From positions 67,585 through 131,584 of the forward strand of contig CAVXAT010000005.1 in NCBI GenBank assembly GCA_963759805.1: a stretch of 64,000 bases of DNA, given 5' to 3'. The notes beneath the pieces were generated by a model, which searched no databases, was not told where the DNA came from, and saw nothing but the letters and a program-made list of their open reading frames with translations. Source of the stretch: an uncultured bacterium (GTDB lineage Bacteria; Babelota; Babeliae; Babelales; RVW-14). This document shows positions 16,455 through 63,927 of the stretch, piece by piece. Both the position numbers and the translations under genes were made by a program. Each line of letters opens with the position of its first letter. Position 1 is the first letter of the stretch.

Positions 16455-16482
16455 TTGATTTTAAGCCTATAAAATGTAGTAT
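16455..16482 (+). promoter_or_regulatory. putative sigma70-like promoter TTGATT-N16-TAGTAT
   Basis: Same motif and spacing upstream of paralogues at 57069-57096 and 60559-60586. Confidence 0.55.
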
Positions 16483-16531
16483 TAAACATTATTGGTTAGC
16501 ATTGGAGGCCCGTCTTTAAAGGAACATAACT

Positions 16532-17242
16532 ATGATTTTAAAAAAATTGATTTCAGGTTTAATTGTAGTACTTATTAGTTTAAATTTTGCCATGTATCCG
16601 GTAGACGGTGAGTCGGAGAATTTAAATTTGGTTCATGGTTGTAAGGAAGACAGCAAAGATCAAAATTTGGATGGCAATGAAGGTGGTAAACCAGCCTGTA
16701 ATGATGAGTGTACAGGTGCCGATATCGATAAACAGCTTTTGAATTTTATATATACAATCTTTACAGAAGATGAAATAAATGAGATGAATCAATCTGCCAA
16801 AGACAAGAGTTATACAGATTTGAAAAAAAAATGTGGATGCAGAATGTGGTTTAACAAAAATTATGATTGTGCAGAAGTATACTTATGTGATGAACATTTC
16901 CGATATTTTGAGCTTTTGCATGCGCCAGAATCAGATTCAGAGAATTCCAATGGTACAAGTAGCAAACCAACGATCAAAAACGAGGCGCTACAAATCAGTA
17001 ATGAAGGCAGGGCTACACAAGGTAACACAAGTATTAATAGGGGCATTTGTAACAGTGATTTGTGTAAAGGTGATATAGATTTAGAAAATATAAATATGGA
17101 GGATTTTCGTGAATATAATTGCACAGATCACGCAGGCAGTAATATGGGAAACAAAACAACTGGAGCTGTAAATAGCCATAAAAACTATGATGCATCAGGT
17201 ATAGGCTTTACTGATATAACCTTGGAAGATATAGATCATTAG
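16532..17242 (+). CDS. small secreted Cys-rich protein (CxC..CxxH family), copy 1
   Basis: Signal peptide nearly identical to that of 57141; CGCRM..DCAEVYLCDEH motif. Confidence 0.8.
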   Translation: MILKKLISGLIVVLISLNFAMYPVDGESENLNLVHGCKEDSKDQNLDGNEGGKPACNDECTGADIDKQLLNFIYTIFTEDEINEMNQSAKDKSYTDLKKKCGCRMWFNKNYDCAEVYLCDEHFRYFELLHAPESDSENSNGTSSKPTIKNEALQISNEGRATQGNTSINRGICNSDLCKGDIDLENINMEDFREYNCTDHAGSNMGNKTTGAVNSHKNYDASGIGFTDITLEDIDH

Positions 17243-17247
17243 ACTAA

Positions 17248-19779
17248 TTAAACTGCACCTGTTAATTGTTTATTCAATAGTTCCAATTTTGAACTTAGCA
17301 TTAAAAGTTTTTGTTTGAGCATGCCCAGCGAAGTTTTAAGGCGTCTGAGGTTCATTTGTAATCGAAATTGTTGTTCAAGTCTCAGCTCTAATTGGGTTCG
17401 ATCTTTAAGCTTTTGATGTAATTCAAATTGATTTTTTTGTTGTTCAAACTGTATCCATTCGTCCGCTGTTATGACAGGAGTTTGTATCATTGTCTGTTTA
17501 ATTACAACAGGATTAAGTTTTTCAATAAAATCCTTAAACGACAATGTTGCTGATGGATTTTGGAGCTTGATGTTTGTTTTTTCACTTTGAAAAATATATC
17601 TTACTACAGGTAGCTGTGCATAGTAATCTGCGAGATTTAGTTCCGCCAAATATGTGAGATTAGCAGATTTCAGGTTGTTTTTATGTAATAATTCGGATTC
17701 TTTAAAGCGCCAAAGAGATTGCGATTTATCGGCAGGCAGAGTGGCCCATTCAAGGTTTAGATCTTTTGTTATATAGGACAAATTCCATGCTTTACCACTA
17801 AAATTGAAGGATATAGTTATATGCGTAAGAAAATTCTCTGATTTCGTTTTTGATTTTACTCTTGAGGTTCTAATAAAGGTATTTTGCAAAATTATTTGCT
17901 TCGTCTCTAGCTTTTTCTTGCCCAAAAATTTTTTAAATTCATCTTGATCATCCAAAATTTGGGAAAAATCATTGAAACCCTCAAGTTCTTTGATGAAAAA
18001 TGTTTTTTCAGATTTTCTATTTCGTAAGATTAAGAAACTATCCCGCAAAAAATTAAGTATTCCAGTTTCAGTAGTTGGTTCGCCTGCATTTGGAATATTT
18101 ATTTTGGCAAAAAGGTTAAGACTGTCACCTCTTTGCATTGAAATAAATTGTGGATAGACATAAAAATTTTTTTCTACTGGATTGGCGCTATAAACTGTGT
18201 TAAAGCATGAAATTGAGGGAAAGTATTTATAAAGATTAACAAGCCATCTAGATAAATTGTTTTGATACAAAATTTTGGTGTTTAGTTGGGTGTTCGGAAT
18301 TATATTGATATTGGCAAAAACAATTTCTGAATATAACAGTAAGGCTAGCCTCTGCTTAATGTCAAGTGTTCCAGCTTCTGCAAAGTACATTTTTTTTAGG
18401 CGATCTATTATTACTTTCTTAGTTTGGGGTGTTTTTCCCATTGTATCCTCTATTTCCACCTCCTCCCCCTCAATAAGTTCAGGTTTTGCTAAAGTCTTTA
18501 TAATTCTAGCGTCAGTTATTTTCTCAAAATTAAATGTCTGAAACCAGCCAACTTCCGGAATCAAAATTTGAGAGATACCGTTGGGTCCTTCAGGGAAAAT
18601 ATACCATGAAGGAGGTAATGATAATTTTTCTAAAACTCCCTCAAGCCCGCTATTTTTCTCTAACCTTTTAATTTCTGATTTTATTACTTTGGGAGGTTCT
18701 GTGGTTTTAGATTTGATTGTCTTTATTTTATCGCTAAATGACTCAGTGCTATCTTGAAATTTCTCTATAGCCTCAAAATATCCATTAAAATCAAGCCCAC
18801 TGTACCCCTTGGGGTTAACGGGAAAGGTTCCATATGATGGTGCATCTGTGATAGAATCAACTATGAAAAGATACTTTATTCTTATTGGTATATAGTTTTT
18901 AACTTGTATTAGATCTAAAATTTTTCCGCCAGAATAGCACGAGAGGAGTCGTACGGATTTAGTGTTAAGCTTATCATTGAAAAAAATTAGCATGTTGGCC
19001 ATATCCTCAATCGACATGCCAGCTACAGTAAACTTTTCCGGTTCAATATAAATTTCCCCCACCTTTTTTCCTGGTGAGTAACTGCCATGTCCATTTATGA
19101 ATATGTTACATGGCTGCAATAAACTTAATTTTTCATAATCTTCAAGTGGTTTAAAAATTAAAGATAATTGAGTAGGATCAAATTTTTTATGAATGGTTGT
19201 TTCGGGTGCTTTCAAATCTTTTATATCAGTATTTGTGTCTTTAGCGTAAGTGATATACTTCATATTTTCATTAGACAGCAATCTTTTGGCCTCAATTGGG
19301 ATGTCTTTTGCCCAAGGTATTATTGGAAAGTCTTTATTCCCTTTGCCATTGTATTCGTCGCCAGCAGAAAGATTAATTTTGGTCCATAAAGTTTTATTAA
19401 AAATCGGATTGTCGTAATCTCTCGAAGCAAAAATAAAAAAATGAGTATTTTTAACCTGATAAATATCCCAGTCATTTAAGTCTATAGTTAGGCTATCAAG
19501 AAACGGATCTGGATTTTCTGTATATTTTCTCAGAATCATATTTTTTAAGACATAATTTGAAACGATAGTAACATGCGAAGTTTTTTTCGAGAGTGTACGT
19601 GCAAATTCTCCCGTTATGGCACCACGTTTTCCAGAGCCAAACCTTTCGCTATGATCATCAATAAAAAAAGCAATTCTAACTGGTTTAATATTTTCCTCAG
19701 CTGTGGGCACCTGAGTTTTTACAGCAGCAAAAATATTTGAACTTAAGATAAACACCAACAATACTACTATCTTACGCAT
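17248..19779 (-). CDS. large secreted protein with clan CD (caspase/CHAT/C80-like) His-Cys dyad, copy 1
   Basis: Signal peptide MRKIVVLLVFILSSNIFA; CNIFINGHGS...VRLLSCYSGG; C-terminal leucine zipper; paralogous to 57853-60359 and 61450-63927. Confidence 0.75.
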   Translation of the reverse strand: MRKIVVLLVFILSSNIFAAVKTQVPTAEENIKPVRIAFFIDDHSERFGSGKRGAITGEFARTLSKKTSHVTIVSNYVLKNMILRKYTENPDPFLDSLTIDLNDWDIYQVKNTHFFIFASRDYDNPIFNKTLWTKINLSAGDEYNGKGNKDFPIIPWAKDIPIEAKRLLSNENMKYITYAKDTNTDIKDLKAPETTIHKKFDPTQLSLIFKPLEDYEKLSLLQPCNIFINGHGSYSPGKKVGEIYIEPEKFTVAGMSIEDMANMLIFFNDKLNTKSVRLLSCYSGGKILDLIQVKNYIPIRIKYLFIVDSITDAPSYGTFPVNPKGYSGLDFNGYFEAIEKFQDSTESFSDKIKTIKSKTTEPPKVIKSEIKRLEKNSGLEGVLEKLSLPPSWYIFPEGPNGISQILIPEVGWFQTFNFEKITDARIIKTLAKPELIEGEEVEIEDTMGKTPQTKKVIIDRLKKMYFAEAGTLDIKQRLALLLYSEIVFANINIIPNTQLNTKILYQNNLSRWLVNLYKYFPSISCFNTVYSANPVEKNFYVYPQFISMQRGDSLNLFAKINIPNAGEPTTETGILNFLRDSFLILRNRKSEKTFFIKELEGFNDFSQILDDQDEFKKFLGKKKLETKQIILQNTFIRTSRVKSKTKSENFLTHITISFNFSGKAWNLSYITKDLNLEWATLPADKSQSLWRFKESELLHKNNLKSANLTYLAELNLADYYAQLPVVRYIFQSEKTNIKLQNPSATLSFKDFIEKLNPVVIKQTMIQTPVITADEWIQFEQQKNQFELHQKLKDRTQLELRLEQQFRLQMNLRRLKTSLGMLKQKLLMLSSKLELLNKQLTGAV

Positions 19780-20056
19780 TCCATTCTCCTTTTTAACAAA
19801 ATAACCCAAAATAAGTCTTGGGGATTTTAGCATTATGCAGCTGAAGAAATAAAGCTTAAGTTAGAAATTATTTTTTTTAGCGCATGTACAGGTAAAAATA
19901 GTTTACTTGAAATGTTTTTGCAGACTTTTTTTAAGTTTTACCTAAGCTTATTGAGCAGTTACCAACCCTGATTTAAATAACCTTGCTTTATTATTGCGCT
20001 TTGGTATTCTCCAAAAAGATAGCTTTATAAACCAAAATTACGCATATGGGTGAAAG

Positions 20057-21227
20057 ATGGAGAGACCTGTTGTTGTGTTGGTAGGTACAAGGCCGGAAGC
20101 ACTAAAGCTGCTGCTCTTGCACAAAAGATTGCAGGCAGAAGGTTTTTCGTCTCTTCTTTGTTCAACAGAACAACACTCAGAGCTCCTAAATCAAGTCTTA
20201 AAAATTTTCGATATTCTGCCTGATATTTCGCTTGGCATAATGAGACCAAACCAAGATCTATTCGACATAACCTCTTCAATCTTAACCAAATTCAAAGAAG
20301 TTTTAATTAAGCTCAATCCCAAATTACTGATAGTCCAGGGGGATACTACATCCGCCTTTGCCGCGGCATTATCGGCCTTTTATCTAAAAATTCCCATAGC
20401 CCATGTTGAAGCCGGGCTAAGAAGCGGCAACATGTATGCTCCTTATCCTGAGGAGTTAAACCGTACAGTAATCTCAAAAATTGCAGACTACAACTTTGCC
20501 CCAACAGCGCGAAGTTGTGCAAACTTACTAAACGAAGGAGTTGCCAGAGAGAAGATATTTTGCACGGGCAACACAGTCGTTGATTCTCTATTCTGGATAA
20601 GAGATAAAATAAGTTCCGGACAGATAAAAGTAGATAAAAATTTAGTTGAGAAAGTTGCAGAATGCAAAAAATTAAATACAAAAATTGCGCTACTCACAGC
20701 CCATCGACGAGAGTCTTTTGGCGGCGGGCTTTTGCAAATATTTAGATCCATCAAAAAATTTGCACAGGGCCACAAAGACTTATTTATCTTTTACACTTTA
20801 CATCCAAATCCCAATGTCATTGCAGAATTTGAAAAATCAGGGTTGGGAGAGCTTGAGAATGTTTTTGTTAGTAATCCACCTGGGATACACGGAACTTGTG
20901 TATCTCTTAACAAATTCATCTTTTGTTATAACAGATTCTGGCGGAATTCAGGAGGAAGCGATGAGCTTGGGAAAGAGAGTAATTGTACTTCGAGATGTCA
21001 CGGAAAGAGTTGAAGGGTTATGGGAAGGACTTGGAAAACTTGTGGGAACAGATGACCATTTAATTAATCAAGGATTGCAGACATTTTATTCAACAGATTT
21101 TCAAGATAAAACATCGACGGTTTTTGGTGATGGGAAAGCGGTCGAACGAATCTGCAATATTTTAAAAGAAAAACTAAATATGACGGAAAAACGAACAGGA
21201 AGAGTTGTTATAGGCACGAATGGTTGA
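20057..21227 (+). pseudogene. wecB: UDP-N-acetylglucosamine 2-epimerase, frameshifted (real or assembly error)
   Basis: GTRPEALK, QGDTT, HVEAGLRS, PEELNR in one frame; TDSGGIQEEA and FGDGKA in another. Removing one C at about 20880 restores SNPLGYTEL. Confidence 0.85.
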
Positions 21228-21232
21228 GGAAG

Positions 21233-21307
21233 TTTATTAATCCATGGATCCTGAAATAAATTTCAGCCGTCGCACCTGGAGTGCTATGGCCGACAGGCAG
21301 GATGACA
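21233..21307. repeat. ATCCATGGATCCTGAAA..TTCAGGATGACA palindromic element interrupted by a second element
   Basis: Outer element matches 29132-29164 and 54357-54396; inner gccgtcgc..gctatggccgaca matches 644-673. Confidence 0.75.
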
Positions 21308-21323
21308 TAAGCGGGGAACACAA

Positions 21324-22631: not shown

Positions 22632-22642
22632 AAAAAAATTAC

Positions 22643-36219: not shown

Positions 36220-36538
36220 ATGCGCTTGAATGCTTCTCATAATAAACTTTTCTTATCCATCTTTAAAGCAACACCAACTCGCCTTCACACTGTATAATCT
36301 CTTCAACCTTTTGGCATTCTGCGGGTTGTCGCCACCATTAAAACAGCAATTTTATGCGATTTTGCATGTTTCGATGTATTTTATTCAATAAAATATTAAT
36401 ATTTTATATAACATAAAAATTCAATTTATCTTACTATTTGCAATTATAAATATTGCGTGATATCATTAGTAGTAGTTGGGTGCCATGTATTTGGCTCCAG
36501 TAAAATCTAAAACCGTGTTTCTGATGAAAGGTTATGTT

Positions 36539-37690
36539 ATGGAGTGTATAAAAAAATTAATATTGACAGCAATGCTTGCTGGTCTACCTGTAACACCTGG
36601 TTACGGAATGCAAGAAACAACGGACATTTTTGATAGGACACTTTTGATTTTTGCTGTGATAAATGAAAATATAGATGCCGTAAAAAAACTTCTTGAATCC
36701 GGTGCCGATGTTAATCAAGCAGATAAACGCGGTGATACACCTTTGCATTATGCTGCGCGAAATGGATTCTTGAAGATTGCAGAAATTCTTATTGCACACA
36801 ACGCTGATGTTAATGCAATAACACGAATTACTCGTATGATTATACCCCCTCAACCTACTGATGGAAAAACACAACACAGGGTTGAGTTAGCCACTGATTT
36901 GTATGTTGCTGAGTTAAATAAACATCCTGAGACTGTAGGAATATCTACTAAAATCGATACTAAAGTTAGCCAAGCATATGATAGTGGTGGCCGTACACCT
37001 TTGATTTTTGCTGCAATAAATGGACACGTAAATGTTGTAGACTTACTTATTCGCAAGAGAGCCAATGTTGATCAAGCAAGCACGGAAGGCTTAACTCCTT
37101 TGATTTGTGCTGCAATGAATGATAGATACGCGATGGTTGTAGGAAGACTTCTTAAAGCCCATGCTGGCATTGATCAAGCAGATATTTGGGGTATGACATC
37201 TTTGCATTATGCTGCGGCAAGAGGATGCTCAGATATTGTAAGAATACTTCTTCGATACCATGCTGATGTTAATAAAGCAGATAATTGGGGAATGACGCCT
37301 TTGCATTTTGCTGCACTAAATGGACACTCGAATATTGTCAAGATGCTTCTTGACGCCCATGCTAATCCTAATCTAAAAAACAATATTGGGAAAACCCCTC
37401 TGGATTGTGCACGTAAATCAAAAGATAAAGAAACCATAGGGCTACTCATTAGTCATAGTTCCAAGCAATCAGAAGGGTCCTCCACATCAGATACCTCCAC
37501 ATCAGATACCTCCACATCAGATACACCCATGTCAGATACCTACACATCAGAGACCTCTATATCAGGGGCCTCCACACCAGATACCTCCATGTCAGGGGCC
37601 TCCACATCAGGCACTTCCACACCAGAAGAAACAGAAGGCTCAGAAGAAGAGGCCACCCCCCTGCTCCATATAACCAAGTTTAAAAAGTAA
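36539..37690 (+). CDS. secreted ankyrin repeat protein with Ser/Thr-rich tail
   Basis: Signal peptide; multiple G-x-TPLHxAA ankyrin repeats; STSDT pentapeptide tail. Confidence 0.92.
   Translation: MECIKKLILTAMLAGLPVTPGYGMQETTDIFDRTLLIFAVINENIDAVKKLLESGADVNQADKRGDTPLHYAARNGFLKIAEILIAHNADVNAITRITRMIIPPQPTDGKTQHRVELATDLYVAELNKHPETVGISTKIDTKVSQAYDSGGRTPLIFAAINGHVNVVDLLIRKRANVDQASTEGLTPLICAAMNDRYAMVVGRLLKAHAGIDQADIWGMTSLHYAAARGCSDIVRILLRYHADVNKADNWGMTPLHFAALNGHSNIVKMLLDAHANPNLKNNIGKTPLDCARKSKDKETIGLLISHSSKQSEGSSTSDTSTSDTSTSDTPMSDTYTSETSISGASTPDTSMSGASTSGTSTPEETEGSEEEATPLLHITKFKK
37480..37625 (+). repeat. 15-bp tandem repeat (tccacatcagatacc)n, about 10 degenerate units
   Basis: Seen directly; fewer units in the first copy (36015-36095). 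Confidence 0.85.
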
Positions 37691-43319: not shown

Positions 43320-43336
43320 CTCTCTCCTAATTTTTT

Positions 43337-43364
43337 GCGCTCATCCTGAGCCTGTCGAAGGATC
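43337..43364. repeat. palindromic element gcgctcatcctgagcctgtcgaaggat
   Basis: Reverse complement of the copy at about 33376-33401. Confidence 0.8.
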
Positions 43365-43385
43365 ATCTTTCTCCTAACTCCTTTT

Positions 43386-46300
43386 TTATACAACACAGTC
43401 ATAATTTAACAAACCATTAACGTTTACATTAGCCCCCAAAACGTTTACCGTGGCGTCATACGCAGACCCTAGATTTGAATTTCCAAACACCACACCGTTT
43501 GAGATTGCTTGGACAGATCGGTCTGGAACGTTGTTTACTTTAAATACTTGCACTGAAGTTGTACCAAAATCAAATCCAGCAATAAAGCGACCGTCCGGCG
43601 ACCATATGTTTGTAAATAAGAAGTCTCCAGCACTTATGTCACTCCCAACCTGTATTGGGGTCTCCGATCCATTAAATGATAATATTTTTGTCACACCATA
43701 ACTAGTACCTACAGCAATAAATTTACCATCTGGTGACCATGATACTGCAAGTGGACCACTTATTATCACATCCCTACCAACTTTTGTTATGGTACTGGAT
43801 CCATTAAATGAAAACACTTGCACTGTCTCCGAACGGTTGTTGGCTACAGCTATAAATCTTCCATCTGGGGACCATGCAACCGATTCCGAGTTATTCCCGG
43901 TACTCACAGTGCCAATTAGAGTTAATGTATTTAATCCATTAAACGAAAACACTTGCAGTGTACCTGTGATTACAGCTATAAACTTTCCATCTGAGGACCA
44001 TGAAACCGCATTTCCAAAGCCTGGTATAGTTGCACTGATAACTGGAGTTGGTGCACCTGACCCACTAAACGAAAAAATTTGAAACGCACCAGATTCACCT
44101 ACGGCTATAAAATTTCCATCCGGCGACCATGATACTGCTCCTGGATAGTCTAAGTCCGTAACCGTTCCAACTAATGATGGGTTTGCGGTTCCTGTAAAAC
44201 TGTATACATATAATGTATCCCCATTATTGGTAAACGCAAAAAACCTTCCATCAGGTGACCATACGGCTGAATATGGGTTGTATAGTAAGCCCGCAATTGA
44301 TCCAACTAATGATGGATTTCCACTCCCTGTAAAACTATATATTTGTAATGTAGGTTCCTGACCACTAGCAACCATTATAAATCTTCCATTCGGCGACCAT
44401 GATAGTGATGAATTGTTGCCAAGGTAGCCGGGATTAACGCTACCTACCTGTGTTACTATCGAAGGATATTGAATTTGAAAGAATTGAACTTCATCTGAAT
44501 TACTGCTAGTAACAGCAACATGTTCATCATCGGAAGCCCATGACATTGAAGATGGTGCATTTTGAGTGGAAATATCTCCCGTCATTTGAGATGCATTAAA
44601 ATACACGTTAAGCGAATACACCTCCAACAATTGAGCATTTTTGCTAACAACTGCTATAAAATTCCCTGTCGGCGACCATGATGCCGACATAGGGAGAACT
44701 CCGTCGGGAACTATATAAGAGCCAACTTCACTTGGAGCAACTTGAGTTGGAGTGCCGGATCCGTTAAATGAATATATTTGTAGTACATCCGGTTGTCCTC
44801 CAAAACCCCCATTATTAGTAACAAAAACAATAAATCTCCCATCCGGGGACCAAGATATTGAAACTGGGGTACCAACAACAAGAGGACTAGTTACAAGACC
44901 GCCAACTGCAGTTGGGTTACTGGACCCATTAAACGAAAACATTCGAAATGAAACATGTACTAGATTGGCAACTGCTATAAAATTACCTGTTGGAGACCAT
45001 GATACTATACCCGGATCTGATAAGATAGCAGGAGATGTATATGGACTTCCAATGCTAGGCCCCGTAAATGGAAATACCTGTAATGTATTTGAACCGTAGT
45101 TGGCTACAGCTATAAAATTACCTGATGGCGACCATGCCACTGAATAGGGATGAGTGCCAGTAGAGGCGGTATATGTAGCTCCAAATCCAGATCCGGTAAA
45201 TGTAAACACCTGCAATGTATTTGCCCCGTAATTGGCTACTGCTATAAAATTACCCGTTGGAGACCATGATACTGAATATGGCGATGATAAGGTAGCAGGA
45301 GATGTATATGTAGTTCCAAAGCCGGACCCAGTAAATGTAAATACCTGCAATGTATTTGAAACCTCATTAACAACAGCTATAAAATTACCTGTGGGAGCCC
45401 ATGATACTGAATATGGATGAGTGCCTGTAGAAGTTGTATATGGAGCTCCAATGCTAGAACCAGTAAATGGAAATACTTGTAATGAATTTGAAATCTCATT
45501 AACAACAGCTATAAAATTACCTAATGGAGACCATGATACCGAATATGGCGTATTTTGGGTAGATGCGCTTCCACCGACTTGAACGGGGACACTTTGATTA
45601 TAAAACTGTAAAAATTGTACTGTGTTTGAGCTATAATTTATAACGCCAAGAGAACCTCCATCAGGAGTCCATGCCGTAGAAATAGGTTCATAATCTGTAG
45701 GAACTGTATCAATGAGGGTTAGCATGGAATTCGCATCAAAAGAAAATATTTGCACAGTGTTCGAATTACTGTTAGCAACTGATAAAAATATTCCGTTCTG
45801 TGCCCATGACACAGACGAAGGGGTAATCCCTGTGGCACTACTTGCAATTGGCGTGGGAGTACCGGATCCGTTGAAGGAAAAAATTTGCAGTGTATTTGAA
45901 CCTGAACTTGTCACGGCCAGAAGTCTGTCCGCTGGAGCCCAGGCAGCTGAAGAGGGAGAAGTTCCCGTAGGAGCGCTGCTTCCGATTGGGGACAAAGTCC
46001 ACGCTTTGAAAATTCGCAAATTATTTGATCCGGAATTGGTTACGGCGATATAGCCACCGTACAAAGACCATGCTACACATGATGGGCTTGAGCCTAAAGT
46101 AGATTTACTTACCGAAAGAAGAGGAGTCCCCCCACTGAAGTTAAACACTGCTACTGTACTGTCCCCAGAGTTAGCAACTGCTAGCTGCGTACTGGTGTTT
46201 GACCACGAAACTGCAACCGGCGAACTTCCGGTCGCAGCATTGCTGCCGACTTGTGTAAGATATACAGAATCAAAAATCTGTAATGTATTTGAAGCCTGAT

Positions 46301-47343
46301 TTACAACAGCCAAATAGTTTCCGTCAGGAGAATAAGCCACACTTGCGGGCAAATTTCCTGTCGAAATAGTTTGATTAGTATTTACAAAATATGGTTGAGG
46401 CAGGGCAAGTGCACTGTTACTTTTCACCGGACACTGATTTTCAAAATTTACAGTTCCACTTGTAAACCTGCATCCGGTAGGAGTTGCGCACAAAGAAGAT
46501 TGATTAAAATATAAATTAGATGTTGCATCTGACATTAAAATAAAACTGTTTGATGTGTACGTTGGCATTTGGTCAAATCTACAGTCAGTAATAGTTGCAG
46601 GCGTAACAGAAAATGTTGTTCCTACATCAAAATAAAATGTGCTGTCCGGTGTTATAAAACTGTGCTGTGTTGACTGGTAAATAAATGCAGAAGTTCCTGT
46701 TACGGCAACATCTCCATGGACAAACAGTTGCCCCTGACCAAATAAAAAATTCTGTGATAATGCAAACTCAACGTTTTTAAGTGCTAGCTGACTTTTGAAT
46801 GCTGCAAGCCTGATACATGGATCAGAAAAATCGTTATATGTTTGTACAATGCGCATATTTTGCAGTGTAAGCGTCACATTTGTATCGACAAAAATTCTAC
46901 CTCTTTTCCCAAAAACTAAATCTTTGCCTTGCCCGTCAATTATTGTGTTTGAATTTATGTGTAAAACAGAGTTATCAGGAAGTGTTAAGTTACTATTCAG
47001 AAATATCGTGTTTCCATTTCCACTGATTACACCACTGCCGGAAAGTGTGAAATTGGAATCAAGATAAAGATCTTCTTGAAGATCAATGTTCCTGTTCCAC
47101 GTAAATCAAGCCCACCTGAAAATGGAAATTCTATGCTAAAAACAGCAGAGGCATTACTTAAAATTGTTGCCCCTGCATTAAATTTTACAAATCCATTAAC
47201 ATATTGATTATCTTATGAAAGACTTGATTTGATGCTAAATATGAAACTGTTGTTGTTACATCAAATGGAGAAGTTGCAAAAATGTTTGAGAAAAAAAACA
47301 GTACATTTAAAATAAAACATAATAATGTTACTAAAAATTTCAT
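43386..47343 (-). CDS. secreted solenoid plus beta-propeller protein with about 20 SVSWSPxGxFIAV repeats; two 5' frameshifts
   Basis: Manual reading from ATG 47343 gives MKFLVTLLCF (signal peptide). Single-base shifts near 47212 and 47086 join it to ORF 46877-43386. Confidence 0.75.
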
Positions 47344-54396: not shown

Positions 54397-54402
54397 AATT
54401 CC

Positions 54403-55623: not shown

Positions 55624-55797
55624 GGCTTAAACTCCAATTTTAAAAGAGTCTTACAACTCATTCAAAAAAAACTTGCCAACAAATTTGGTTCCTTGATATC
55701 CTGGCTCCAAGGTTCACCCCAGTTGTTTATAAAATATTACTCTTGAAAATGTCCCAGGTAAACACTTTCGTTTTAATCTATCAGAAAGGATTAGGTT

Positions 55798-56889
55798 ATG
55801 AAAACAAAAAATTTGTTTTATGTAATCTTCATCTTAATTACTAGTTTTTTGACTAGTTTTTTTACATGCAATGCCAACATGGCAAAGGCAGTTGATTTCG
55901 AAAATGAACTTAGCGACGGAACCCCATTGCAATCGAGCACACTGCCTTTAAAATGTTACTTTGATGAACAAGCAGATCAATCTCAAACACATGCATGCGA
56001 CCTTGTTTCAAGAACGGCAATTTTAAATCAAACATTTTTACAACAGTATGTCAAAGAAGATTATAATAAGCCTGAGCTAACAGAGGTTTTTTCTCGCGAT
56101 GGATCAGACATTACACTGTTCTTAAAAATTACGTCCGATTTAAATCTTGATGATTCTGTAGCATATGTTGGATTACGACTTTTCCATAATAAGATAAAGT
56201 CCTGCGATCTAATACTTGGAAAAGTAACCAACTGTATAATTGAAAACTTTAATGAATACTTAGGCAGATACTTTGATAACACAGATGATAATTTCAAAAC
56301 AGAGCTTGAAATCATACGCAAAAATCTTGAAAAAATCGTACTGAGTCAGCTTAACGACCAATTTGCAAAACAAGAAACATTTAATAAATCAAAAGTCACA
56401 CAACAAATTTCTGATGATATTTTTGAATTAATTACACAAAGCGTCAATCGAATTCAGAAAAAATTTGATGCTTACCAAGCAAAGGAACGACTCAGACATG
56501 TTATATTACGTTTTGTTGAAACGTTACTTGATAAAACAGTATGGGACGATAACAGTGCTGAAGAAATTTGGCCATCATTTATATCAATATCAAATAACAT
56601 ACAAAAGATGGCAGGCACCGGAATAATTGATCACTTTGATGATCTTGACGACTTATTATGGTCACTAACACACTGTTTTTGCAGGTATTTTACCTCATTT
56701 GGAATATCAGTTCCCACCACTGTATATGAAACAATTGAACGTGATTTAAGACAAAATTCAGTCTCATTTCTGGAAGAACCGGAACAGGATGAATGCATAA
56801 AAACCAAAAAAGAGCATATCCACGAAGCATTAATGAAAGCTAAATTTAAAGCTTATGCTTACGAGAAAAAGGGAATAATATCCCAGTAA
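55798..56889 (+). CDS. hypothetical secreted helical protein
   Basis: Signal peptide; 363-aa open frame; no recognisable motif. Confidence 0.75.
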   Translation: MKTKNLFYVIFILITSFLTSFFTCNANMAKAVDFENELSDGTPLQSSTLPLKCYFDEQADQSQTHACDLVSRTAILNQTFLQQYVKEDYNKPELTEVFSRDGSDITLFLKITSDLNLDDSVAYVGLRLFHNKIKSCDLILGKVTNCIIENFNEYLGRYFDNTDDNFKTELEIIRKNLEKIVLSQLNDQFAKQETFNKSKVTQQISDDIFELITQSVNRIQKKFDAYQAKERLRHVILRFVETLLDKTVWDDNSAEEIWPSFISISNNIQKMAGTGIIDHFDDLDDLLWSLTHCFCRYFTSFGISVPTTVYETIERDLRQNSVSFLEEPEQDECIKTKKEHIHEALMKAKFKAYAYEKKGIISQ

Positions 56890-57068
56890 TATCCCAGTTG
56901 CTTCGTACCCAACATTTTTTAATGCTTAAATGCAGCAAAAACTCGTATCTCTGCACGTTATTTTTGCATCCTGCGGCTTGTGATATTATTTCAACCATGA
57001 AATTAAGCCGACAATCTGAATTAGCTATATTCAACTCGAAATTATATAGATTTTGCGGGTGGATTTAG

Positions 57069-57096
57069 TTGATTTTAAGACCATAAACGGTAGTAT
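57069..57096 (+). promoter_or_regulatory. putative promoter TTGATT-N16-TAGTAT
   Basis: Conserved with 16455-16482 and 60559-60586. Confidence 0.55.
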
Positions 57097-57140
57097 TAAA
57101 TATAATAATGTTTTTGGGCTTTAGATTGGAGGAAATATAA

Positions 57141-57842
57141 ATGTTTTCAAAAAAAATCGCTTCAGGGTTAATCGTAATCCTTATTAGTTTAAATTTTTCT
57201 ATTTATGCAGTCGAAATGGATTTAGAAAAGATAATCCAGGATGTTTCATACGAATATTTTTCCAAAGGCTATAGTAAGTCCTTCGAAAGTATTGACAGCA
57301 TGAAAGATTGCGAATGCACAATGGAGGAACCCGAAGCTTCTGATTACATAAAAATATGTCTATGCAAAAAATTTTTTCAAATTTTGGATATTTGGTGGAG
57401 TATATTTTCAAAATCAGATAAGAATGAAGAAAAAAGAAACAAAGCCATTATTGACGGAGATTTAAATACAAAACCATTGATAAAGGATTTGAGAAATATA
57501 TTCCTGGGTTTTTTGTGCAAATTTTTTTTAGTAGATAGTAGCAAATCATTGAAAGATGGTGACTGTACAAAAAGTTGCGGATGTAAAATGCTGCAAAACA
57601 AAGATTCTGATTGTGCAGATATATATATATGCAAAGAGCATTGCCTTGTTGTGGAAACATGGGGCGAGCAGGTGTTAAAATTAACAGAAGATTCAGGAAA
57701 GGAAGCTGAAAGCGAGACTCTATCAGATGGCTGTGGGTGCAAGATGGCAACAGATCGTTGTTGTTGCCAAACCATATACATATGTGAAAAGCATCTTCTA
57801 GACCTAGAAGCTTTGGGCCAACATCGCTCAGATTCTGACTAG
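57141..57842 (+). CDS. small secreted Cys-rich protein (CxC..CxxH family), copy 2
   Basis: Three CxC(T/K)M..I(Y/C)(I/L)CxxH/F units; GGAGG RBS. Confidence 0.8.
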   Translation: MFSKKIASGLIVILISLNFSIYAVEMDLEKIIQDVSYEYFSKGYSKSFESIDSMKDCECTMEEPEASDYIKICLCKKFFQILDIWWSIFSKSDKNEEKRNKAIIDGDLNTKPLIKDLRNIFLGFLCKFFLVDSSKSLKDGDCTKSCGCKMLQNKDSDCADIYICKEHCLVVETWGEQVLKLTEDSGKEAESETLSDGCGCKMATDRCCCQTIYICEKHLLDLEALGQHRSDSD

Positions 57843-57852
57843 AATTGGCTAA

Positions 57853-60359
57853 TCAATTTGCGCCATGTAGACAATCTGTTAACACTTGCAATTTCGAGCT
57901 TAATATTAAAAGTTTTTCCTTAAGTATGCCCAGTGAATTTTTAAGTTTTTTAAGTTTTAGTTTTAATTGTGTTTGTTGTTCAAAACTTGCCCATTCACTT
58001 GGTGTAATGTCAATCCCCTTATTCATTGCTTTTTTAATATCTTCAGGATCAAGCCTAACAATAAAGTCTTTAAGTGATAAAACACCTGATGGATTTTTAA
58101 TTTTGATGTTTGTATTTTGATATTGGAAAAGATCCTTAATTATTGGTAGTTGCGTGTAATATTCAGTTGGACTCAATTTGGCTAAGAATGTAAGGCCTGC
58201 GCTGGCAATATATTTTTCATATTTATCTTTAGAGTTTTCAAATCGCCAAAGAGATTGTGATTTGTTTGCAAGCAAATCAGGCTTCTGATTTAAGTAAAGT
58301 TCCTTATTTAAACTTTTAAGAGTCCAATATTCCCCTTCAAACTCAAATGCTATATCCACATTTAGAATCGTTCCGATTGATTTCACTGATGATGTTTTAA
58401 TAAAAACATTCTTTAAAATTATTTGTTGCTTTCTAATATTTTTCGACTCCAAGAATATTTTGAAGCTGTCGTTTCCATCCAAAATTTGAGAAAAATCATT
58501 AAATCCTTCAAGCTCTTTTATAAAGAATGTCTTTTCAGATTCTCTTCCACGTAAAATTAAAAAACTATCACGTAAAAAATTAAGAATGCCGGTTGCTACT
58601 GGTGTTTCTTTCGAATTAGCAATAGTGATTTTTGCAAATAGATTAATGCTGTCTCCTCGCTGCATAGAAATAATTTGTGGATAGATATAAAAATTTTTCT
58701 CTATTTGCATATCGCTATAAATAGTGTCCAAGCATGGAATTGATGGAAAGTATTTATAAGTATTAAAGAGCCACCAAGTTACATAATTTTGGCAAAAAGC
58801 TTTGGCAGTTATATGGTATTTTGCGGGAAATATATTAAGATTAGCAAATACAATTTCTGAATATAAAAGTAAAGCCCATTTTTTGTTGATATCAACTGTT
58901 CCTATTCCTGCAAAATCCATTTTTTTTAGGCGGGTTATTATTGTTACTTTTTTAACTTCCGGTGGATTTTTCCTTATTCAACCTCTTCGTTTTTAACGAA
59001 TTCTGGCTTTGCTAATGCCTTCATAATGGTGGCGTCGGTTATTTTTTGTATATCGGGACTGATATCAAAAGTCTGAATCCAGCCGACTTCCGGAATCCAA
59101 ATTTGTGGAAAATTAGAAGGTCCATATAATACAGAATACCAATCTTCAATAAGGCATAATTGTTGTAAAATTCCATTAAGTCCGCTGTTTTTTTCTAATT
59201 TTTTAAGTTTAGCCTTTATTTCAACGGATTCTGTTGTTTTAGATTTTATAGCATTTATTTTGTCTCTAAACAATTCATAGCGATCTTGAAAGTTATCCAA
59301 AGCTTCGAAATACTTGTCAATACGATTAAAATTTTTAAATTTTTCTGCAGTAACTCTAAATATTGTGGTATCCGTGATCGAATCAACTATTAACATGTAT
59401 TTCATTCTAATTGGTATATCGTTTTTGATTTGCATCAAATCTAAATTTTTCCCACCAGAATAACACGAGCTTATACGTAACGATTTGGTATTAAGTTTAT
59501 CATTGAGAAAGAGCAGGGTATTAACAATATTATCAACAGACATTCCTGCTATCGTAATATCCTCTTTTTTTGAAGAATAGCTTCCATGCCCAAATATATA
59601 TATATTGCATGGTGGTAATGAGCTTAATTCGTATAATTCATATTTAAAAGGCTTATTATCAACTGTTACAGTTTTTACCTCTTTTATCGGAAGTTCATTG
59701 AAAATCAAAGATAGCTGATTGGAATTAAAATTTTTATGCTCCGGAGATAATAAATCTTCTACATCCGTTTTTACATCCTCCGCATAAGGAATATATTTCA
59801 AATTTTTATTTGATAGCAATCTTTTGGCTTCGATTGGTGCATCATCAGCCCATGATATTTTGGGAAAATTATTTACAACATCAATTAGCTTATTCACCAT
59901 TGCAAATATTGGAGATGCCCCATTGTATTCTTTGCCAGAAGAAAGATCAATTTGGGTCCATTTGCTTTTATTAAAAACAGTGTTGTGGTAATTTCTTGGA
60001 ACAAAAACAAAAAATTGGGTATCGTTGATTGTGTAAATGTCCCACTTGTTTAAGTCTACATCAAAACGCTTAAGATATGTGTCTGGATTTTTGGTATATC
60101 TTCTCAGTATCATATTTTTCAAAATATAATTTGAAACGATTATTGCGCATGATTTGCATTGAGAGAGTGTACGTGCAAATTCGCATGCTGCGGCATCATA
60201 TCCATTGCTACCAAATTTTTCGTTATGCTCATCAATGAAAAAAGCAATTCTAACTGGCTTGATATTTTCAATAGTTGTAGTGTCTAGTGTTTTTGCAGCA
60301 AAAATATTTGAACTTAAGAAAAGCCCCAACAATATCATTATCTTACGCATATTATTCAT
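57853..60359 (-). pseudogene. large secreted clan-CD-like protease, copy 2, split by a frameshift at about 58975
   Basis: ORFs 60380-58974 and 58920-57853 align end to end with the paralogues; GAAGAGGTTGAA-TAAGGAAAAATCCA lacks about 10 nt relative to copy 3. Confidence 0.8.
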
Positions 60360-60558
60360 TCCCCTGCTCCTTTTTAACAAAATAATTAAAAGTAAGTTTT
60401 GGGTATTCTAGTATTATGATGTCGCATAAATAAAGTAAATTTATAAAATTAGAATGGTATTAGCCATCGATATTATTTCAAATGAGCAATTGTTATAAGA
60501 GTAAATTTTACATCAAACTCTTTCCGAAATAAAACAGTGGTGTTAACAATGGGGGTGC

Positions 60559-60586
60559 TTGATTTTAAGCTTATAACCTATAAAAT
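60559..60586 (+). promoter_or_regulatory. putative promoter TTGATT-N16-TAAAAT
   Basis: Conserved with the two other Cys-rich gene promoters. Confidence 0.5.
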
Positions 60587-60636
60587 TAATATTGTCTTGA
60601 GGTTATTTTTTATCTACTTAAACGATAAAGGCAATC

Positions 60637-61287
60637 ATGTTCAATAAAAATATTTTTTTAGCTTTGATAACAATTTTTACGTATTTAAATTTTGTCACCT
60701 GCACAACAGGAGAGAATCTTAGTATTCCTAAAACAGGAGATACTGTAACTAATATTTCTAGCGATGGAGAATGTGATTTGGAAAGCCTAATTCAGTTTAA
60801 AAGCATAATCCAGTTTGTTGTGGATAAGTTTTTAGCGCTTGATCAAAAAAGCGTAGAGGGTTTCATGAATGACTTAAGGTGTAATGGTTGTAACTGTGAT
60901 TTTTTCAACTATGATTTTTTCGAGGAACATGATTCTTCAGAAAATACAAAGATTATTATTTGTAAAGGACATAGCAAGCAAATAGATATTTGGGGAAAAT
61001 TGTTTTCAAGTGATAAAAAGTCAAATTGTACATGTGAAAAAACAAAGAAATCGCTTCGATGGATTGGTGGTATTAGGGATATTGTAACTATAGGTATTTT
61101 TTATAAATACTTTTATTTTTATAACAGTGATCATTGCAAAGATGGAAGCGATGTTAAAAAATGCGAATGCAAAATATTGAAAAATGCAACAGCTGAATGT
61201 ATGGAAGTATGCTTATGCAAAAAACATTTTGAAGCTTTGAAAGCCTGGGAACACCAAATGTTCCATTTACGTATGGTGAAAGGTTAA
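60637..61287 (+). CDS. small secreted Cys-rich protein (CxC..CxxH family), copy 3
   Basis: CNC..IIICKGH and CECKI..ECMEVCLCKKH units; signal peptide. Confidence 0.8.
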   Translation: MFNKNIFLALITIFTYLNFVTCTTGENLSIPKTGDTVTNISSDGECDLESLIQFKSIIQFVVDKFLALDQKSVEGFMNDLRCNGCNCDFFNYDFFEEHDSSENTKIIICKGHSKQIDIWGKLFSSDKKSNCTCEKTKKSLRWIGGIRDIVTIGIFYKYFYFYNSDHCKDGSDVKKCECKILKNATAECMEVCLCKKHFEALKAWEHQMFHLRMVKG

Positions 61288-61449
61288 GCCACTAGTTTGA
61301 ATAGTTGGACTCCCAAGGCTTGGCCTCAAGATTTAGTTTGAAAACGATGATGCTGCGCTATGCTTATTCTTCAGCGGCTTGATACGCTTTAAAGCAAGGT
61401 GAATACTACTTTCTAAACCCGGTCATGAATTTGAAAAGTGATAAAAAGC

Positions 61450-63927
61450 TTAATGATGTAATTTAATTTCCAACTGCTCTAAACGAGTCCTTAAAATTGA
61501 GAATTTTTCCTTAAGGTTTATCAAAGAATTTTTTAATGTTTTGAGTTTTATTTGCAGGCGAGTTTGTTGTTCTAGGCCTACTTCTGATTGAGTCTTATCT
61601 TTAAGTTTTTGTCTTAATTCAGACTGATTTTTTTCAAGTTCAAATTCTTTCCATTGTTCAGCTTTAATTACAGGAGCTTGCTGAATTTCTTTTTGAATGT
61701 CATCAGGCTTTAGTTTAATAATAAAATCTTTTAATGATAAGGTTTGAGCTGGTTTTTTTATTTGGATATTTGTTTTTTCACGATGAAACATATCTCTAAT
61801 TACTGGTAATTTAGCATAATATTCGGCAGGGTTTAAATTGGCTAAATATGATAGATTTGATGATTTAATATTTTCCTCATGTTCAGTACTGCTTTGTTTA
61901 AAATGCCAAAGAGATTGAGATGGGATGGCGCTTGATATTGAAAGATGTAAATCTTGTTTCTTATAAATAAGAAACCATGGCTTTCCGTTAAATTCAAATG
62001 AAAGCTTGATGCTTGTAAATTCTTCACTTACGAATTCCATTGAAGTTTCGATGAAAACATTTTGCAATGTTATCTGTTTTTGCTTCAAATTTTGCGAATC
62101 TAGTTCTTTTTTGAATGGATCATTTTTATCCAAAACTTCCGAGAAGTCGTTAAATCCTTCAAGCTCTTTGATAAAAAATGTTTTTAATGAAATTCTATCA
62201 CGTAAAATAAAAAAGCTGTCACGCAAAAAATTAAGAATTCCATTTTCAATAAGTGGTTCTTCAGAATTTTTCAAAATACTTATTTTTGCAAATAGATTAA
62301 GACTATCGCCCCTTTGCATGGATATGATTTGTGGATAAATGCAGAAATCATTTTGAGATGGAAAATATTCATGTAAATTTGGTAACCATGGAGATTTGAA
62401 TGATAATAACCATAGAGGTAATTTTTTTTGTGAAATATTGGAACTTATTCCTAGTGTGACATAAATGATTTCAGAATACAAAAGTAAAGCAAATTTTCCC
62501 TTAACATCAATGGTTCCAGATTCTGCAAAATTCATTTTGTCTAGCCGGCTTTTTATTATTACCTTCTTAACAATCGGTGGATTTTTCCTTACATCTTCTA
62601 TCTCTACCTCTTCATTCTTAACAAACGTCGGTGCCGCCAATGCGTTGATAATCGTAGCGTCAGTTATTTTCTTGACATACGGGTCAACATTAAATGTTTG
62701 AAACCACCCAATTTCAGGAATCCAAATTTGTGGAAAATTATTAAGCCCATAAAGTTCGTAGTACCAGTCTTTCGTTAAAGGTAAACTTTTTAGAATTCCA
62801 TTAAACCCGCTATTTTCTTCCCGTTCCTGTATTTCCGTTTTTATCTCTTTTTCAGCTTCACCTGAAAGTAGTCGTCTTTTTGCTTTAATAGCTTTTAATT
62901 TTTTTACAAAAATATCATAACCTCCCTGAAATTCTTCTAATGCTTCAAAATAGCCTTTTATGTCAACTCGTGAGTAGTCTTTTGCGGCTTTTAACGTAGC
63001 CACATTTGGAGCATCTGTAATTGACTCAACAATTAATAGATACTTTATTCTAATTGGTATGTCATTTTTTATTCGCATTAAATCCAATCCTTTACCACCT
63101 GCAAAGCAGGCAGATATTCGTATGGATTTTGTATTTAGCTTATCATTGAAAAAAAGCAATAAATTTGCCATCTCATCTGATTGGATTCCTGCAATAAAAT
63201 GTTTTTTGTCGTATGATCCCCCATGGCCTGCTATGTATATATTACAAGGCTGTGCTAAGCTCAGTTCCTCATAATTTTCAACTGGCTTAAAAATCCAAGA
63301 TAATTGAATTGGCTCAAATTTTTTCTCTGGCAGTTTGTTTGTATCTATATTATAAGAACGCCAATCTTTGGTATATGGAATATATTTTAAACCTTCATGT
63401 GATAATAATTTTTTTGCCTTAATTGCAGCCGTATCTTTCCACTGTATAATGGATCTGTCCTCATCGTCTTTATCACCTTTATATTCTTTAAGTTTATCGA
63501 AATCAATCTTATTCCATATTAAATTGCCATCGATTCTTAATGTTTTGTTTAAAATTGGACTGTCATAGCCAGGTCGAACAAAAACAAAGAATTGAGTATT
63601 TTCAATATAGTAAATATCCCAATCATTTAAATCAAAGTTAATTGTTGTAATATCCGGATCTGAAGTTTTTGTATATTTTCTTAAAATCATGTTTTTTAAA
63701 ATGTAATCTGAAACAATTATGATATCTAAAAATTTTTGGTGAAGTTCTGCGGCAAATTCACGTGTCATTGCGACACTCCCATTACTAGAATATGTCTCAT
63801 CATGATTGTCAATATAAAAACCCATTCTGATAGGTTTGATATTTTCACCAGATGCAGCCTTCTGATCTTGCATTGCAAAAATATTTGTACTTAGTAAAAG
63901 CACCAACAACATTACTCTCTTAAACAT
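61450..63927 (-). CDS. large secreted clan-CD-like protease, copy 3
   Basis: MFKRVMLLVLLLSTNIFA; CNIYIAGHGG...IRISACFAGG; C-terminal leucine zipper. Confidence 0.78.
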   Translation of the reverse strand: MFKRVMLLVLLLSTNIFAMQDQKAASGENIKPIRMGFYIDNHDETYSSNGSVAMTREFAAELHQKFLDIIIVSDYILKNMILRKYTKTSDPDITTINFDLNDWDIYYIENTQFFVFVRPGYDSPILNKTLRIDGNLIWNKIDFDKLKEYKGDKDDEDRSIIQWKDTAAIKAKKLLSHEGLKYIPYTKDWRSYNIDTNKLPEKKFEPIQLSWIFKPVENYEELSLAQPCNIYIAGHGGSYDKKHFIAGIQSDEMANLLLFFNDKLNTKSIRISACFAGGKGLDLMRIKNDIPIRIKYLLIVESITDAPNVATLKAAKDYSRVDIKGYFEALEEFQGGYDIFVKKLKAIKAKRRLLSGEAEKEIKTEIQEREENSGFNGILKSLPLTKDWYYELYGLNNFPQIWIPEIGWFQTFNVDPYVKKITDATIINALAAPTFVKNEEVEIEDVRKNPPIVKKVIIKSRLDKMNFAESGTIDVKGKFALLLYSEIIYVTLGISSNISQKKLPLWLLSFKSPWLPNLHEYFPSQNDFCIYPQIISMQRGDSLNLFAKISILKNSEEPLIENGILNFLRDSFFILRDRISLKTFFIKELEGFNDFSEVLDKNDPFKKELDSQNLKQKQITLQNVFIETSMEFVSEEFTSIKLSFEFNGKPWFLIYKKQDLHLSISSAIPSQSLWHFKQSSTEHEENIKSSNLSYLANLNPAEYYAKLPVIRDMFHREKTNIQIKKPAQTLSLKDFIIKLKPDDIQKEIQQAPVIKAEQWKEFELEKNQSELRQKLKDKTQSEVGLEQQTRLQIKLKTLKNSLINLKEKFSILRTRLEQLEIKLHH

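What the first reader, a model, noticed from the sequence alone, without database searches (positions are those of the whole stretch)
16455..63927. Thrice-repeated tail-to-tail module: large clan-CD-like protease plus small CxC..CxxH protein
Seen: 16532-17242 with 19779-17248, 57141-57842 with 60359-57853, and 60637-61287 with 63927-61450. Each is a small Cys-rich secreted gene converging on a large secreted gene (gaps 5, 10 and 162 nt). Both partners keep conserved upstream DNA: TTGATT-N16-TA(G/A)(T/A)AT for the small genes, and an ~70-nt block at 19790-19855, 60365-60435 and 63932-64000 for the large ones. The pair is therefore duplicated and moved as a unit, 40 kb apart, despite having separate promoters. 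Inference: an effector/metaeffector or protease/inhibitor pair with co-diversifying partners. In two copies there is no room for a terminator, so antisense overlap may also couple expression.
Basis: partly seen in the sequence, partly recalled or inferred. Interest (0 to 1): 0.82.

Follow-up and report, generated by a model that had tools for sequence, protein, structure and literature searches.

The report
Mobile caspase-fold protease with swappable partner
In a bacterium whose relatives live inside protists, a predicted exported caspase-fold protease from an unnamed, phylum-wide family moves around the genome as a two-gene cassette with a small cysteine-rich exported gene facing it, and that partner, which comes in two unrelated types, likely helps control or aim the protease, though no binding or activity has been shown.

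Summary
The three tail-to-tail pairs are real, but the middle large gene is frameshifted. The genome is Ca. Babeliales. The large protein has a predicted clan CD (legumain/clostripain-like) fold, with His231 and Cys281 invariant in 86 of 86 aligned relatives. Its family has no Pfam or NCBIfam model, occurs in 154 of 251 phylum genomes, and is distinct from the C11 peptidases already reported there. Only one narrow subfamily is paired: 12 of 14 loci with a visible downstream flank face a Cys-rich, signal-peptide gene. Partners occur in only 3 of 251 genomes, always at such a locus. Module 1 is a 3.6-kb insertion between 10-bp direct repeats at a site empty in three congeners, so the pair moves as a unit. 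Against a strict cognate inhibitor: two unrelated partner folds fill the slot, one clade has none, and partner type follows the adjacent 3' half of the protease gene better than its catalytic half. Short convergent gaps are ordinary here (52 of 178). Best reading: a mobile co-exported effector pair with a likely regulatory partner (0.45); hitch-hiking independent effectors 0.35. The scan's earlier notes did not hold this.

The parts
16345..16354 (+). Left copy of 10-bp direct repeat ACCAACCCTG bounding module 1 (target-site-duplication-like)
   Evidence: site empty in G001, G002, G003
16355..19960 (.). Module 1 insertion (3,606 nt, GC 0.331 vs genome 0.375) holding only S1, L1 and their upstream regions
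16455..16482 (+). Conserved promoter-like box of S1 (TTGATT-N16-TAGTAT)
16532..17242 (+). S1, 236 aa, signal-peptide-like N-terminus, one CxC-x15-CxxH motif, acidic [IV]xLED[IF] tail repeats
17248..19779 (-). L1, 843 aa from the ATG behind the AAGGAG site; predicted clan CD domain (about residues 30-412), second conserved domain (about 400-720), C-terminal long helix
19087..19089 (-). Codon of His231 (GHG), predicted catalytic His
   Evidence: invariant in 86 of 86 aligned proteins; follows strand 223-229 in the model
18937..18939 (-). Codon of Cys281 (SCxxGG), predicted catalytic Cys
   Evidence: invariant in 86 of 86; follows strand 272-279 in the model
19780..19860 (-). Conserved upstream block of L1 (-10-like CATAAT, leader, ribosome-binding site)
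19961..19970 (+). Right copy of the 10-bp direct repeat
56877..56898 (+). Tandem 11-bp duplication AATATCCCAGT at the left junction of the module 2/3 array; G002 and G003 have a different gene here
57069..57096 (+). Promoter-like box of S2
57141..57842 (+). S2, 233 aa, three CxC...Cxx[H/F] repeats (predicted beta-hairpin plus helix); lacks the acidic tail of its closest relative P0142
57853..58920 (-). L2 C-terminal piece (355-aa ORF) of a frameshifted gene
58974..60359 (-). L2 N-terminal piece (461 aa) with signal-peptide-like start and the whole His/Cys core, ending at TAA
60360..60432 (-). Upstream block of L2, 97% identical to that of L3
60559..60586 (+). Promoter-like box of S3 (TTGATT-N16-TAAAAT), back to back with L2's upstream block
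60637..61287 (+). S3, 216 aa, CxC...CxxH motif, no acidic tail; 62% identical to G003's orphan S208
61279..61342 (+). 64-nt repeat in the S3-L3 gap, also on C12 and just upstream of a small IS200-TnpA-like ORF on C8 (family recognised from memory)
61450..63927 (-). L3, 825 aa, intact paralog with His/Cys dyad
63927..63999 (-). Upstream block of L3; contig C5 ends here, so the array may continue

Best explanation
Each module is a mobile two-gene cassette in which a predicted exported clan CD cysteine protease faces a separately promoted, predicted exported Cys-rich protein that likely acts on or with the protease after export, as a regulator or adaptor of the metaeffector kind and likely not as an active-site-specific inhibitor. 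Shown: gene layout, His/Cys invariance, pairing counts, insertion of module 1 between direct repeats, two partner types. Predicted: clan CD fold, signal peptides, a CCCH zinc-site-like motif. Inferred: both proteins leave by Sec and work in the vacuole or cytoplasm of a protist host; tandem L-S-L-S arrays recombine inside the large gene, so the 3' half of the protease gene and its partner are exchanged together; any contact would then involve the non-catalytic C-terminal half. Untested: proteolysis, binding, expression, host target.
For: Fold: ranks 1-12 of a search over 48,161 chains are all clan CD (C11 6n9j Z 8.6, rmsd 3.9, 199 aligned; legumain, GPI8, metacaspase, CHAT); one search agrees (Z up to 8.4). 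His231 and Cys281 are invariant in 86 of 86. Pairing: 12 of 14 close-subfamily loci with a visible 3' flank face an S- or M-type gene (G000 6 of 6, G003 3 of 3, G027 1 of 1, L039 1 of 1, L040 1 of 1, G002 0 of 1, L041 0 of 1). In 251 genomes S is found in 3 (6 genes, 5 facing a protease gene, 1 upstream of another S at the same locus) and M in 2 (5 genes, all facing one). A 1,203-nt contig of a separate run bridges S2-like and L2-like sequence. Four more pairs share a longest-contig length to the base (4747, 24921, 160733, 149275), which is indirect. The cassette sits at unrelated sites without shared ends yet keeps both genes. Both genes show crude pN/pS of 0.19-0.61 in 8 comparisons.
Against: The protease family occurs in 154 of 251 genomes while partners occur in 3, so the enzyme does not need one in general. 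No distant-family locus inspected had a downstream convergent ORF with 3.5% Cys or more. One close clade (G002, L041) is intact and unpaired. S and M share only the 26-residue signal region. Physical linkage alone explains co-occurrence and matching trees. A signal peptide is weak evidence here: 493 of 1,097 ORFs pass my crude N-terminal hydrophobicity test. The partner has no structural match that suggests a mechanism (best Z 3.6).
Confidence: 0.45

Rival explanations
1. The two genes are independent host-directed effectors that travel together only because they were once captured side by side and are copied as one block.
For: Two unrelated partner folds and one partner-less clade; separate promoters; the wider family is unpaired; partner type follows the physically adjacent 3' half; the blocks are demonstrably mobile, with the C15/C3/C9 segment 96% identical in DNA to G003 C41 while shared flanking loci are 79-83% identical.
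Against: Pairing persists across protease clades about 45-65% identical and across unrelated insertion sites with no shared ends; no S or M gene was found away from a protease locus in 251 genomes.
Confidence: 0.35
2. The small protein is a cognate inhibitor or detached prodomain that blocks the active site and protects the bacterium's periplasm during export.
For: Clan CD enzymes are commonly self-inhibited (PMC4357240, passages); in G000 the protease is broken while the partner is intact at 3 loci (L2/S2, C15, C9), both are broken at 1 (C3), and the reverse occurs at none; G003 has an orphan S208.
Against: The same M-type partner sits with catalytic halves from distant clades, and clade B catalytic halves sit with both S and M types. 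Holding the M-type/unpaired group together on the catalytic-half tree was rejected (p-AU 0.004; group named after seeing the trees and including rows of unknown partner). An intact unpaired copy exists. The protease gene is 2-3 times longer than its partner, so more breaks in it are expected.
Confidence: 0.12
3. The small protein is the dedicated substrate: the protease matures or destroys it, for example at the repeated acidic xLED[IF] tail.
For: 7 of 11 aligned S proteins end in [IVL]xL[EAD]D[IVF]-type repeats, which resemble acidic cleavage sites of Asp-specific clan CD enzymes (resemblance recalled, not tested).
Against: S2, S3, S208 and S134 lack the tail; the P1 preference of this family is unknown.
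Confidence: 0.06
4. Convergent transcription couples the two genes through antisense overlap.
For: Gaps of 5 and 10 nt; no terminator-like site between the genes.
Against: 52 of 178 convergent pairs genome-wide have gaps of 10 nt or less; Rho is present; the third gap is 162 nt and holds a dispersed repeat.
Confidence: 0.02

Closest known systems
Clan CD peptidases: clostripain family C11 (B. thetaiotaomicron iotapain 6n9j/6nag), legumain/GPI8 family C13, metacaspase C14B, CHAT (PMC4357240, passages read)
   Same: Predicted alpha/beta core aligning over about 200 residues (Z 7.4-8.6); His and Cys at the ends of two strands, 50 residues apart; signal-peptide-like N-terminus as in secreted C11.
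   Different: 5-12% structural identity; no Pfam, NCBIfam or PDB-sequence hit; extra conserved domain at about 400-720 and a C-terminal long helix; specificity and activation unknown.
C11 peptidases reported in Babela massiliensis (PMC4378268) and Chromulinavorax destructans (PMC6561590)
   Same: Secreted clan CD proteases of the same phylum, proposed there as part of the host-degrading enzyme set.
   Different: Those are PF03415 proteins of about 430-480 aa; PF03415 matches in G000 listed lie on contig C4, and none of the family proteins scanned hits PF03415.
Legionella effector-metaeffector pairs (RavJ-LegL1, SidL-LegA11, SidI-MesI; PMC5199130 and PMC7911563, passages read)
   Same: Adjacent genes in a protist parasite, sometimes on opposite strands; some pairs occasionally occur singly; RavJ is a putative cysteine protease blocked by its partner.
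   Different: No sequence or fold relation; Sec-type signal peptides, not Dot/Icm substrates; binding and regulation, the two defining criteria, are not shown; partner slot holds two folds; cassette is visibly mobile.
Polymorphic toxin/immunity cassettes (e.g. CdiA-CT/CdiI; from general knowledge)
   Same: Tandem arrays, exchange of 3' parts by recombination, orphan partner genes; a CdiA-CT/CdiI pair lies on the same G003 contig.
   Different: Partner is convergent with its own promoter and signal peptide, not co-transcribed; the catalytic domain is the conserved N-terminal part; unpaired intact copies exist.

Membership tests
Clan CD cysteine peptidases | Caspase/haemoglobinase alpha/beta core | tested here: met
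   Predicted model (pTM 0.67); top 12 of 48,161 chains are clan CD, best Z 8.6, rmsd 3.9, 199 aligned; one search agrees. Z is middling, but the ranking is consistent.
Clan CD cysteine peptidases | His then Cys dyad at the C-terminal ends of two core strands | tested here: met
   H231 after strand 223-229 and C281 after strand 272-279; both invariant in 86 of 86; feature as stated in PMC4357240.
Clan CD cysteine peptidases | Proteolytic activity with strict P1 specificity | not testable with these tools
   No assay possible.
Peptidase C11 (PF03415) | Match to the family profile | tested here: not met
   No hit at E 0.01-0.05 for the window proteins or 40 relatives, while other genes in 61 of 61 genomes hit it.
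Peptidase C13 / C14 / C80 / CHAT | Match to the family profiles | tested here: not met
   No Pfam or NCBIfam hit; the Atlas gave only a weak lead to a cluster with 13% Peptidase_C80 (score 0.86).
Effector-metaeffector pair | Genomic proximity and co-occurrence (typical, not defining) | tested here: met
   12 of 14 subfamily loci paired; partners only at such loci in 251 genomes.
Effector-metaeffector pair | Direct binding of the cognate effector | not testable with these tools
   Needs co-purification or a similar experiment.
Effector-metaeffector pair | Regulation of the effector's activity | not testable with these tools
   Needs a suppression or activity assay.
Effector-metaeffector pair | Delivery of both proteins into the host cell | tested here: inconclusive
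   Hydrophobic N-termini in all S/M proteins checked and 72 of 86 family proteins, but also in 493 of 1,097 genome ORFs (crude test); no signal-peptide predictor was available.
Non-autonomous mobile cassette (transposon-like) | Empty site in relatives and flanking direct repeat | tested here: met
   Module 1: empty in G001, G002, G003; 10-bp repeat at both junctions, chance 21 of 20,000 random window pairs.
Non-autonomous mobile cassette (transposon-like) | Terminal inverted repeats or ends shared with an autonomous element | tested here: not met
   Only a weak GTA..GCTC resemblance between the ends; no match of module 1's ends to another element in G000 or the fetched loci beyond the S upstream region.

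The most novel reading that the evidence does not exclude
Babelota carry a phylum-wide, undescribed family of secreted caspase-fold proteases, and one lineage has turned it into a mobile, recombining cassette in which exchangeable zinc-finger-like (S) or helical (M) partners bind the protease's non-catalytic half and set its target or timing inside the protist host: a modular protease-adaptor effector system, and the first metaeffector-like pairs outside Legionella-type secretion.
Probability: 0.25. Interest if true: 0.8.

Novelty: new variant of a known kind. Interest (0 to 1): 0.57.

Why it matters
Babelota are a whole phylum of protist parasites whose host-manipulating proteins are mostly unannotated. 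A clan CD protease family found in at least 154 of 251 genomes, often in several copies and missed by Pfam and NCBIfam, is a concrete candidate for a core host-interaction enzyme with a ready catalytic-mutant test. The paired subfamily gives natural cognate and non-cognate combinations for asking whether effector-regulating partners exist outside Legionella, and shows that such cargo moves between species.

Tried and rejected
Complex prediction of L1 (28-720) with S1 (25-236): no verdict (score 0.00, controls not folded, partner fold uncertain); not used as evidence. Fold of S2 (pTM 0.57): no Foldseek match at E 0.001 and best Z 3.6; Atlas blank; PDB sequence searches gave only chance-level rows. 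The 400-720 domain of L was not folded alone, so its fold is untested. No RNA holder listed; the three runs laid were contigs of relatives. No relative in plasmids or viral contigs. Single-protein scans of metagenome and genome contigs found nothing; alignment scans did. The cluster look-up that would have tied P0005/P0140, P0007/P0143 and others to contigs could not be made, so those four pairs rest on equal contig lengths. Promoter and terminator scans were at chance level. Considered and dropped: dif/Xer-type sites at the ends (arms face the wrong way; by eye); a translated 18-residue N-terminal extension of L (L2 has ATA at that codon and a ribosome-binding site precedes the second ATG); identity with published C11 peptidases. 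Six peptide motifs of the family were not found in the Babela annotation table, which does not show absence.
Full report
Observation. The window is contig C5 of a 1.50-Mb, 21-contig genome (88.7% complete). A congener's record is titled Candidatus Babeliales, a phylum known so far only as parasites of protists (PMC12172432, passages). Three small genes (S1 16532-17242, S2 57141-57842, S3 60637-61287) converge on large genes (L1 17248-19779, L2 57853-60359, L3 61450-63927) with gaps of 5, 10 and 162 nt. L2 is not one reading frame: it stops at 58974 and continues in another frame. A contig of a relative has 189 letters where the window has 179 across this stretch, so the break looks specific to this copy, though an assembly error is not excluded. 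The contig ends inside L3's upstream block, so the array may go on.

The large protein. Pfam and NCBIfam give no hit, nor does a PDB sequence search. A search of 1.84 billion representatives found 125 relatives. In an alignment of 86 proteins (the two intact window proteins and 84 chosen, mostly the near-full-length ones) His231, Cys281 and Pro543 are the only invariant columns, in the contexts GHG and [ST]CxxGG. The AlphaFold2 model (pTM 0.67) places both residues just after core strands. Foldseek gave no match at E 0.001, though legumain and metacaspase led its list. The wide structural search ranked clan CD enzymes 1 to 12: C11 (Z 8.6, rmsd 3.9, 199 aligned), legumain, GPI8, metacaspase and CHAT; a second look agreed. 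These Z values are middling, but the uniform ranking plus the dyad fits the clan definition in PMC4357240 (passages). A second conserved domain (about 400-720) and a C-terminal long helix follow; that domain was not folded alone. A 45-row profile matched 154 of 251 genomes drawn across the phylum, many with several matches; at most four candidates were scored per genome, so this is a floor. The C11 peptidases named in the Babela and Chromulinavorax papers (PMC4378268: passages, section 15 and supplement searches; PMC6561590: passages) are other genes: PF03415 matched 61 of 61 genomes, and its listed matches in this genome lie on C4.

The small proteins. Eleven S proteins were aligned. They share an N-terminal signal-like segment, one to three repeats of C-x-C-x(13-16)-C-x-x-H (Cys146, Cys148, Cys164 and His167 of S2 invariant), and in 7 of 11 an acidic [IVL]xL[EAD]D[IVF] tail. 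The model shows each repeat as a beta-hairpin followed by a helix (pTM 0.57); a CCCH zinc site is my inference. No known fold matched.

Pairing. This genome has six close protease loci: three in the window and three on C15, C3 and C9. The last three face a different Cys-rich secreted gene, M442. A shorter form, M300/M288, occurs in G003, L039 and L040. S and M share only 26 residues of signal region, and M300 carries the S-type promoter, so the slot has been refilled behind a kept promoter and signal. Of 14 close loci whose 3' flank can be read, 12 are paired; the two unpaired (G002 and L041) are 100% identical proteins of one clade. Two further copies (second genes of L039 and L040) run off their contigs and were not counted. 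In 251 genomes S occurs in 3 and M in 2 of those same 3, and all 11 genes lie at a protease locus, 10 of them directly facing the protease gene. A contig from a separate run bridges S2-like and L2-like DNA. Four more pairs are suggested only by equal longest-contig lengths; three S proteins (P0139, P0141, P0142) have no known context. The wider family is unpaired: among the distant loci inspected none had a downstream convergent ORF with 3.5% Cys or more. These genomes are close kin and not independent samples.

Mobility. In G001, G002 and G003 the genes flanking module 1 are neighbours. In the window 3,606 nt lie between two copies of ACCAACCCTG (16345-16354, 19961-19970); two random 30-nt windows share a 10-mer in 21 of 20,000 draws. 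The insert holds only S1, L1 and their upstream DNA. At the module 2/3 site G002 and G003 have another gene, which was not found in this assembly, and the junction shows an 11-bp tandem duplication. G003's S-S-L-M-L array lies between restriction-modification genes and a YafQ pair, a large serine recombinase and tRNA-Asp. The M442-protease segment is 96% identical in DNA between this genome and G003, whereas shared flanking loci are 79-83% identical, which points to recent transfer; the three copies here are 95-99% alike, lie at contig ends, and may be strain variants. G002's lone protease gene also sits at a site that lacks it in this genome. I found no shared cassette ends or terminal repeats, so the moving enzyme is unknown.

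Co-diversification. Partner type broadly tracks protease clades, as linkage predicts. The halves disagree: the M300-paired proteases group with the S2-paired clade in the N-terminal half (89/98) but apart from it in the C-terminal half, and M442-paired proteases group with the unpaired clade. Holding the M-type, unpaired and context-unknown rows together was rejected for residues 30-345 (p-AU 0.004) and was already the best tree, weakly (support 49), for 470-780. That group was named after seeing the trees and outgroups were left out, so the p value is only indicative. The S tree is poorly resolved, with long branches. The reading is that recombination inside the large gene swaps its 3' half together with the partner. 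This argues against an inhibitor tuned to the active site, and fits either contact with the C-terminal half or plain linkage. Both genes look conserved by selection (crude pN/pS 0.19-0.61 in 8 comparisons, flanking control 0.15; uncorrected).

Antisense coupling. 52 of 178 convergent ORF pairs in this genome have gaps of 10 nt or less and Rho is present, so the short gaps carry no signal.

Mechanism. Most likely both proteins are exported through Sec, as many proteins of this phylum are predicted to be (44% in Chromulinavorax, PMC6561590), and the protease cleaves host or vacuolar proteins. I put 0.45 on the partner regulating or aiming it, because both genes stay together across deep divergence and unrelated insertion sites and the partners were never found away from it. 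I put 0.35 on independent effectors hitch-hiking, 0.12 on a classical cognate inhibitor, 0.06 on partner-as-substrate and 0.02 on antisense coupling. Metaeffector status needs binding and regulation (PMC7911563, passages; PMC5199130, passages), and neither is shown.

Novelty. Searches for Dependentiae with protease/signal peptide, Dependentiae with caspase, Babela massiliensis with gene families, Babelota with effector, TM6 lineage-specific families, Vermiphilus/Babeliales with peptidase, and caspase-hemoglobinase with protist (listings, plus passages of PMC4776705) turned up no description of this family or pairing. The library lacks most subscription papers, and supplements other than Babela's were not read. 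The scan's own notes held nothing on this sequence. Verdict: a real, mobile, tightly paired cassette inside a new clan CD family, function of the partner open; new variant of a known kind, interest 0.57.

Noticed in passing
window 20057-21227: UDP-GlcNAc 2-epimerase gene next to module 1 is frameshifted by one base relative to G002 and G003, where it is a 389-aa ORF; may be decay or an assembly error.
   Followed up: partly
window 61279-61342; G000 C12:4909-4972; C8:142315-142398: A 64-nt dispersed repeat sits in the S3-L3 gap; on C8 it lies just upstream of a small IS200-TnpA-like ORF (family recognised from memory), so it may be an IS end left behind.
   Followed up: partly
G000 C1:117120-119300: A distant, conserved-type paralog of the protease family has PGFG where the family has GHG, so it looks catalytically dead; unpaired.
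   Followed up: no
L031 3930-7700, L032 5383-9114, L034 4006-7557: Long (about 1,200 aa) members of the protease family with helical C-terminal extensions sit at fixed chromosomal sites in G002, G003 and G023 and form the outgroup of the mobile subfamily.
   Followed up: partly
L036 2581-11088 (G012 C1): Four tandem, unpaired members of the protease family (640-690 aa); G144 gave 49 first-look candidates, suggesting large expansions elsewhere in the phylum.
   Followed up: no
window 5232-6890: Ubiquitin C-terminal hydrolase (PF00443, E 4e-29) gene followed by tmRNA at 6906-7276; a eukaryote-like effector candidate.
   Followed up: no
window 36476-37690, 39996-46877: Ankyrin-repeat gene and two large WD40 beta-propeller genes, typical of the phylum.
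   Followed up: no
window 16337-16344 and 19971-19980: The empty target of module 1 reads as a near-palindrome (TTATTTAAA ... TTTAAATAA) between two divergent genes; possibly a regulator site or a recombinase target.
   Followed up: partly
L037 27-2194 (G003 C14): CdiA-CT RNase A domain and CdiI immunity genes on the same contig as G003's protease array, upstream of the restriction-modification genes.
   Followed up: no
P0148: A 575-aa partner joins an S-type signal, an M300-like part and an M442-like part, showing that the M family is modular.
   Followed up: partly
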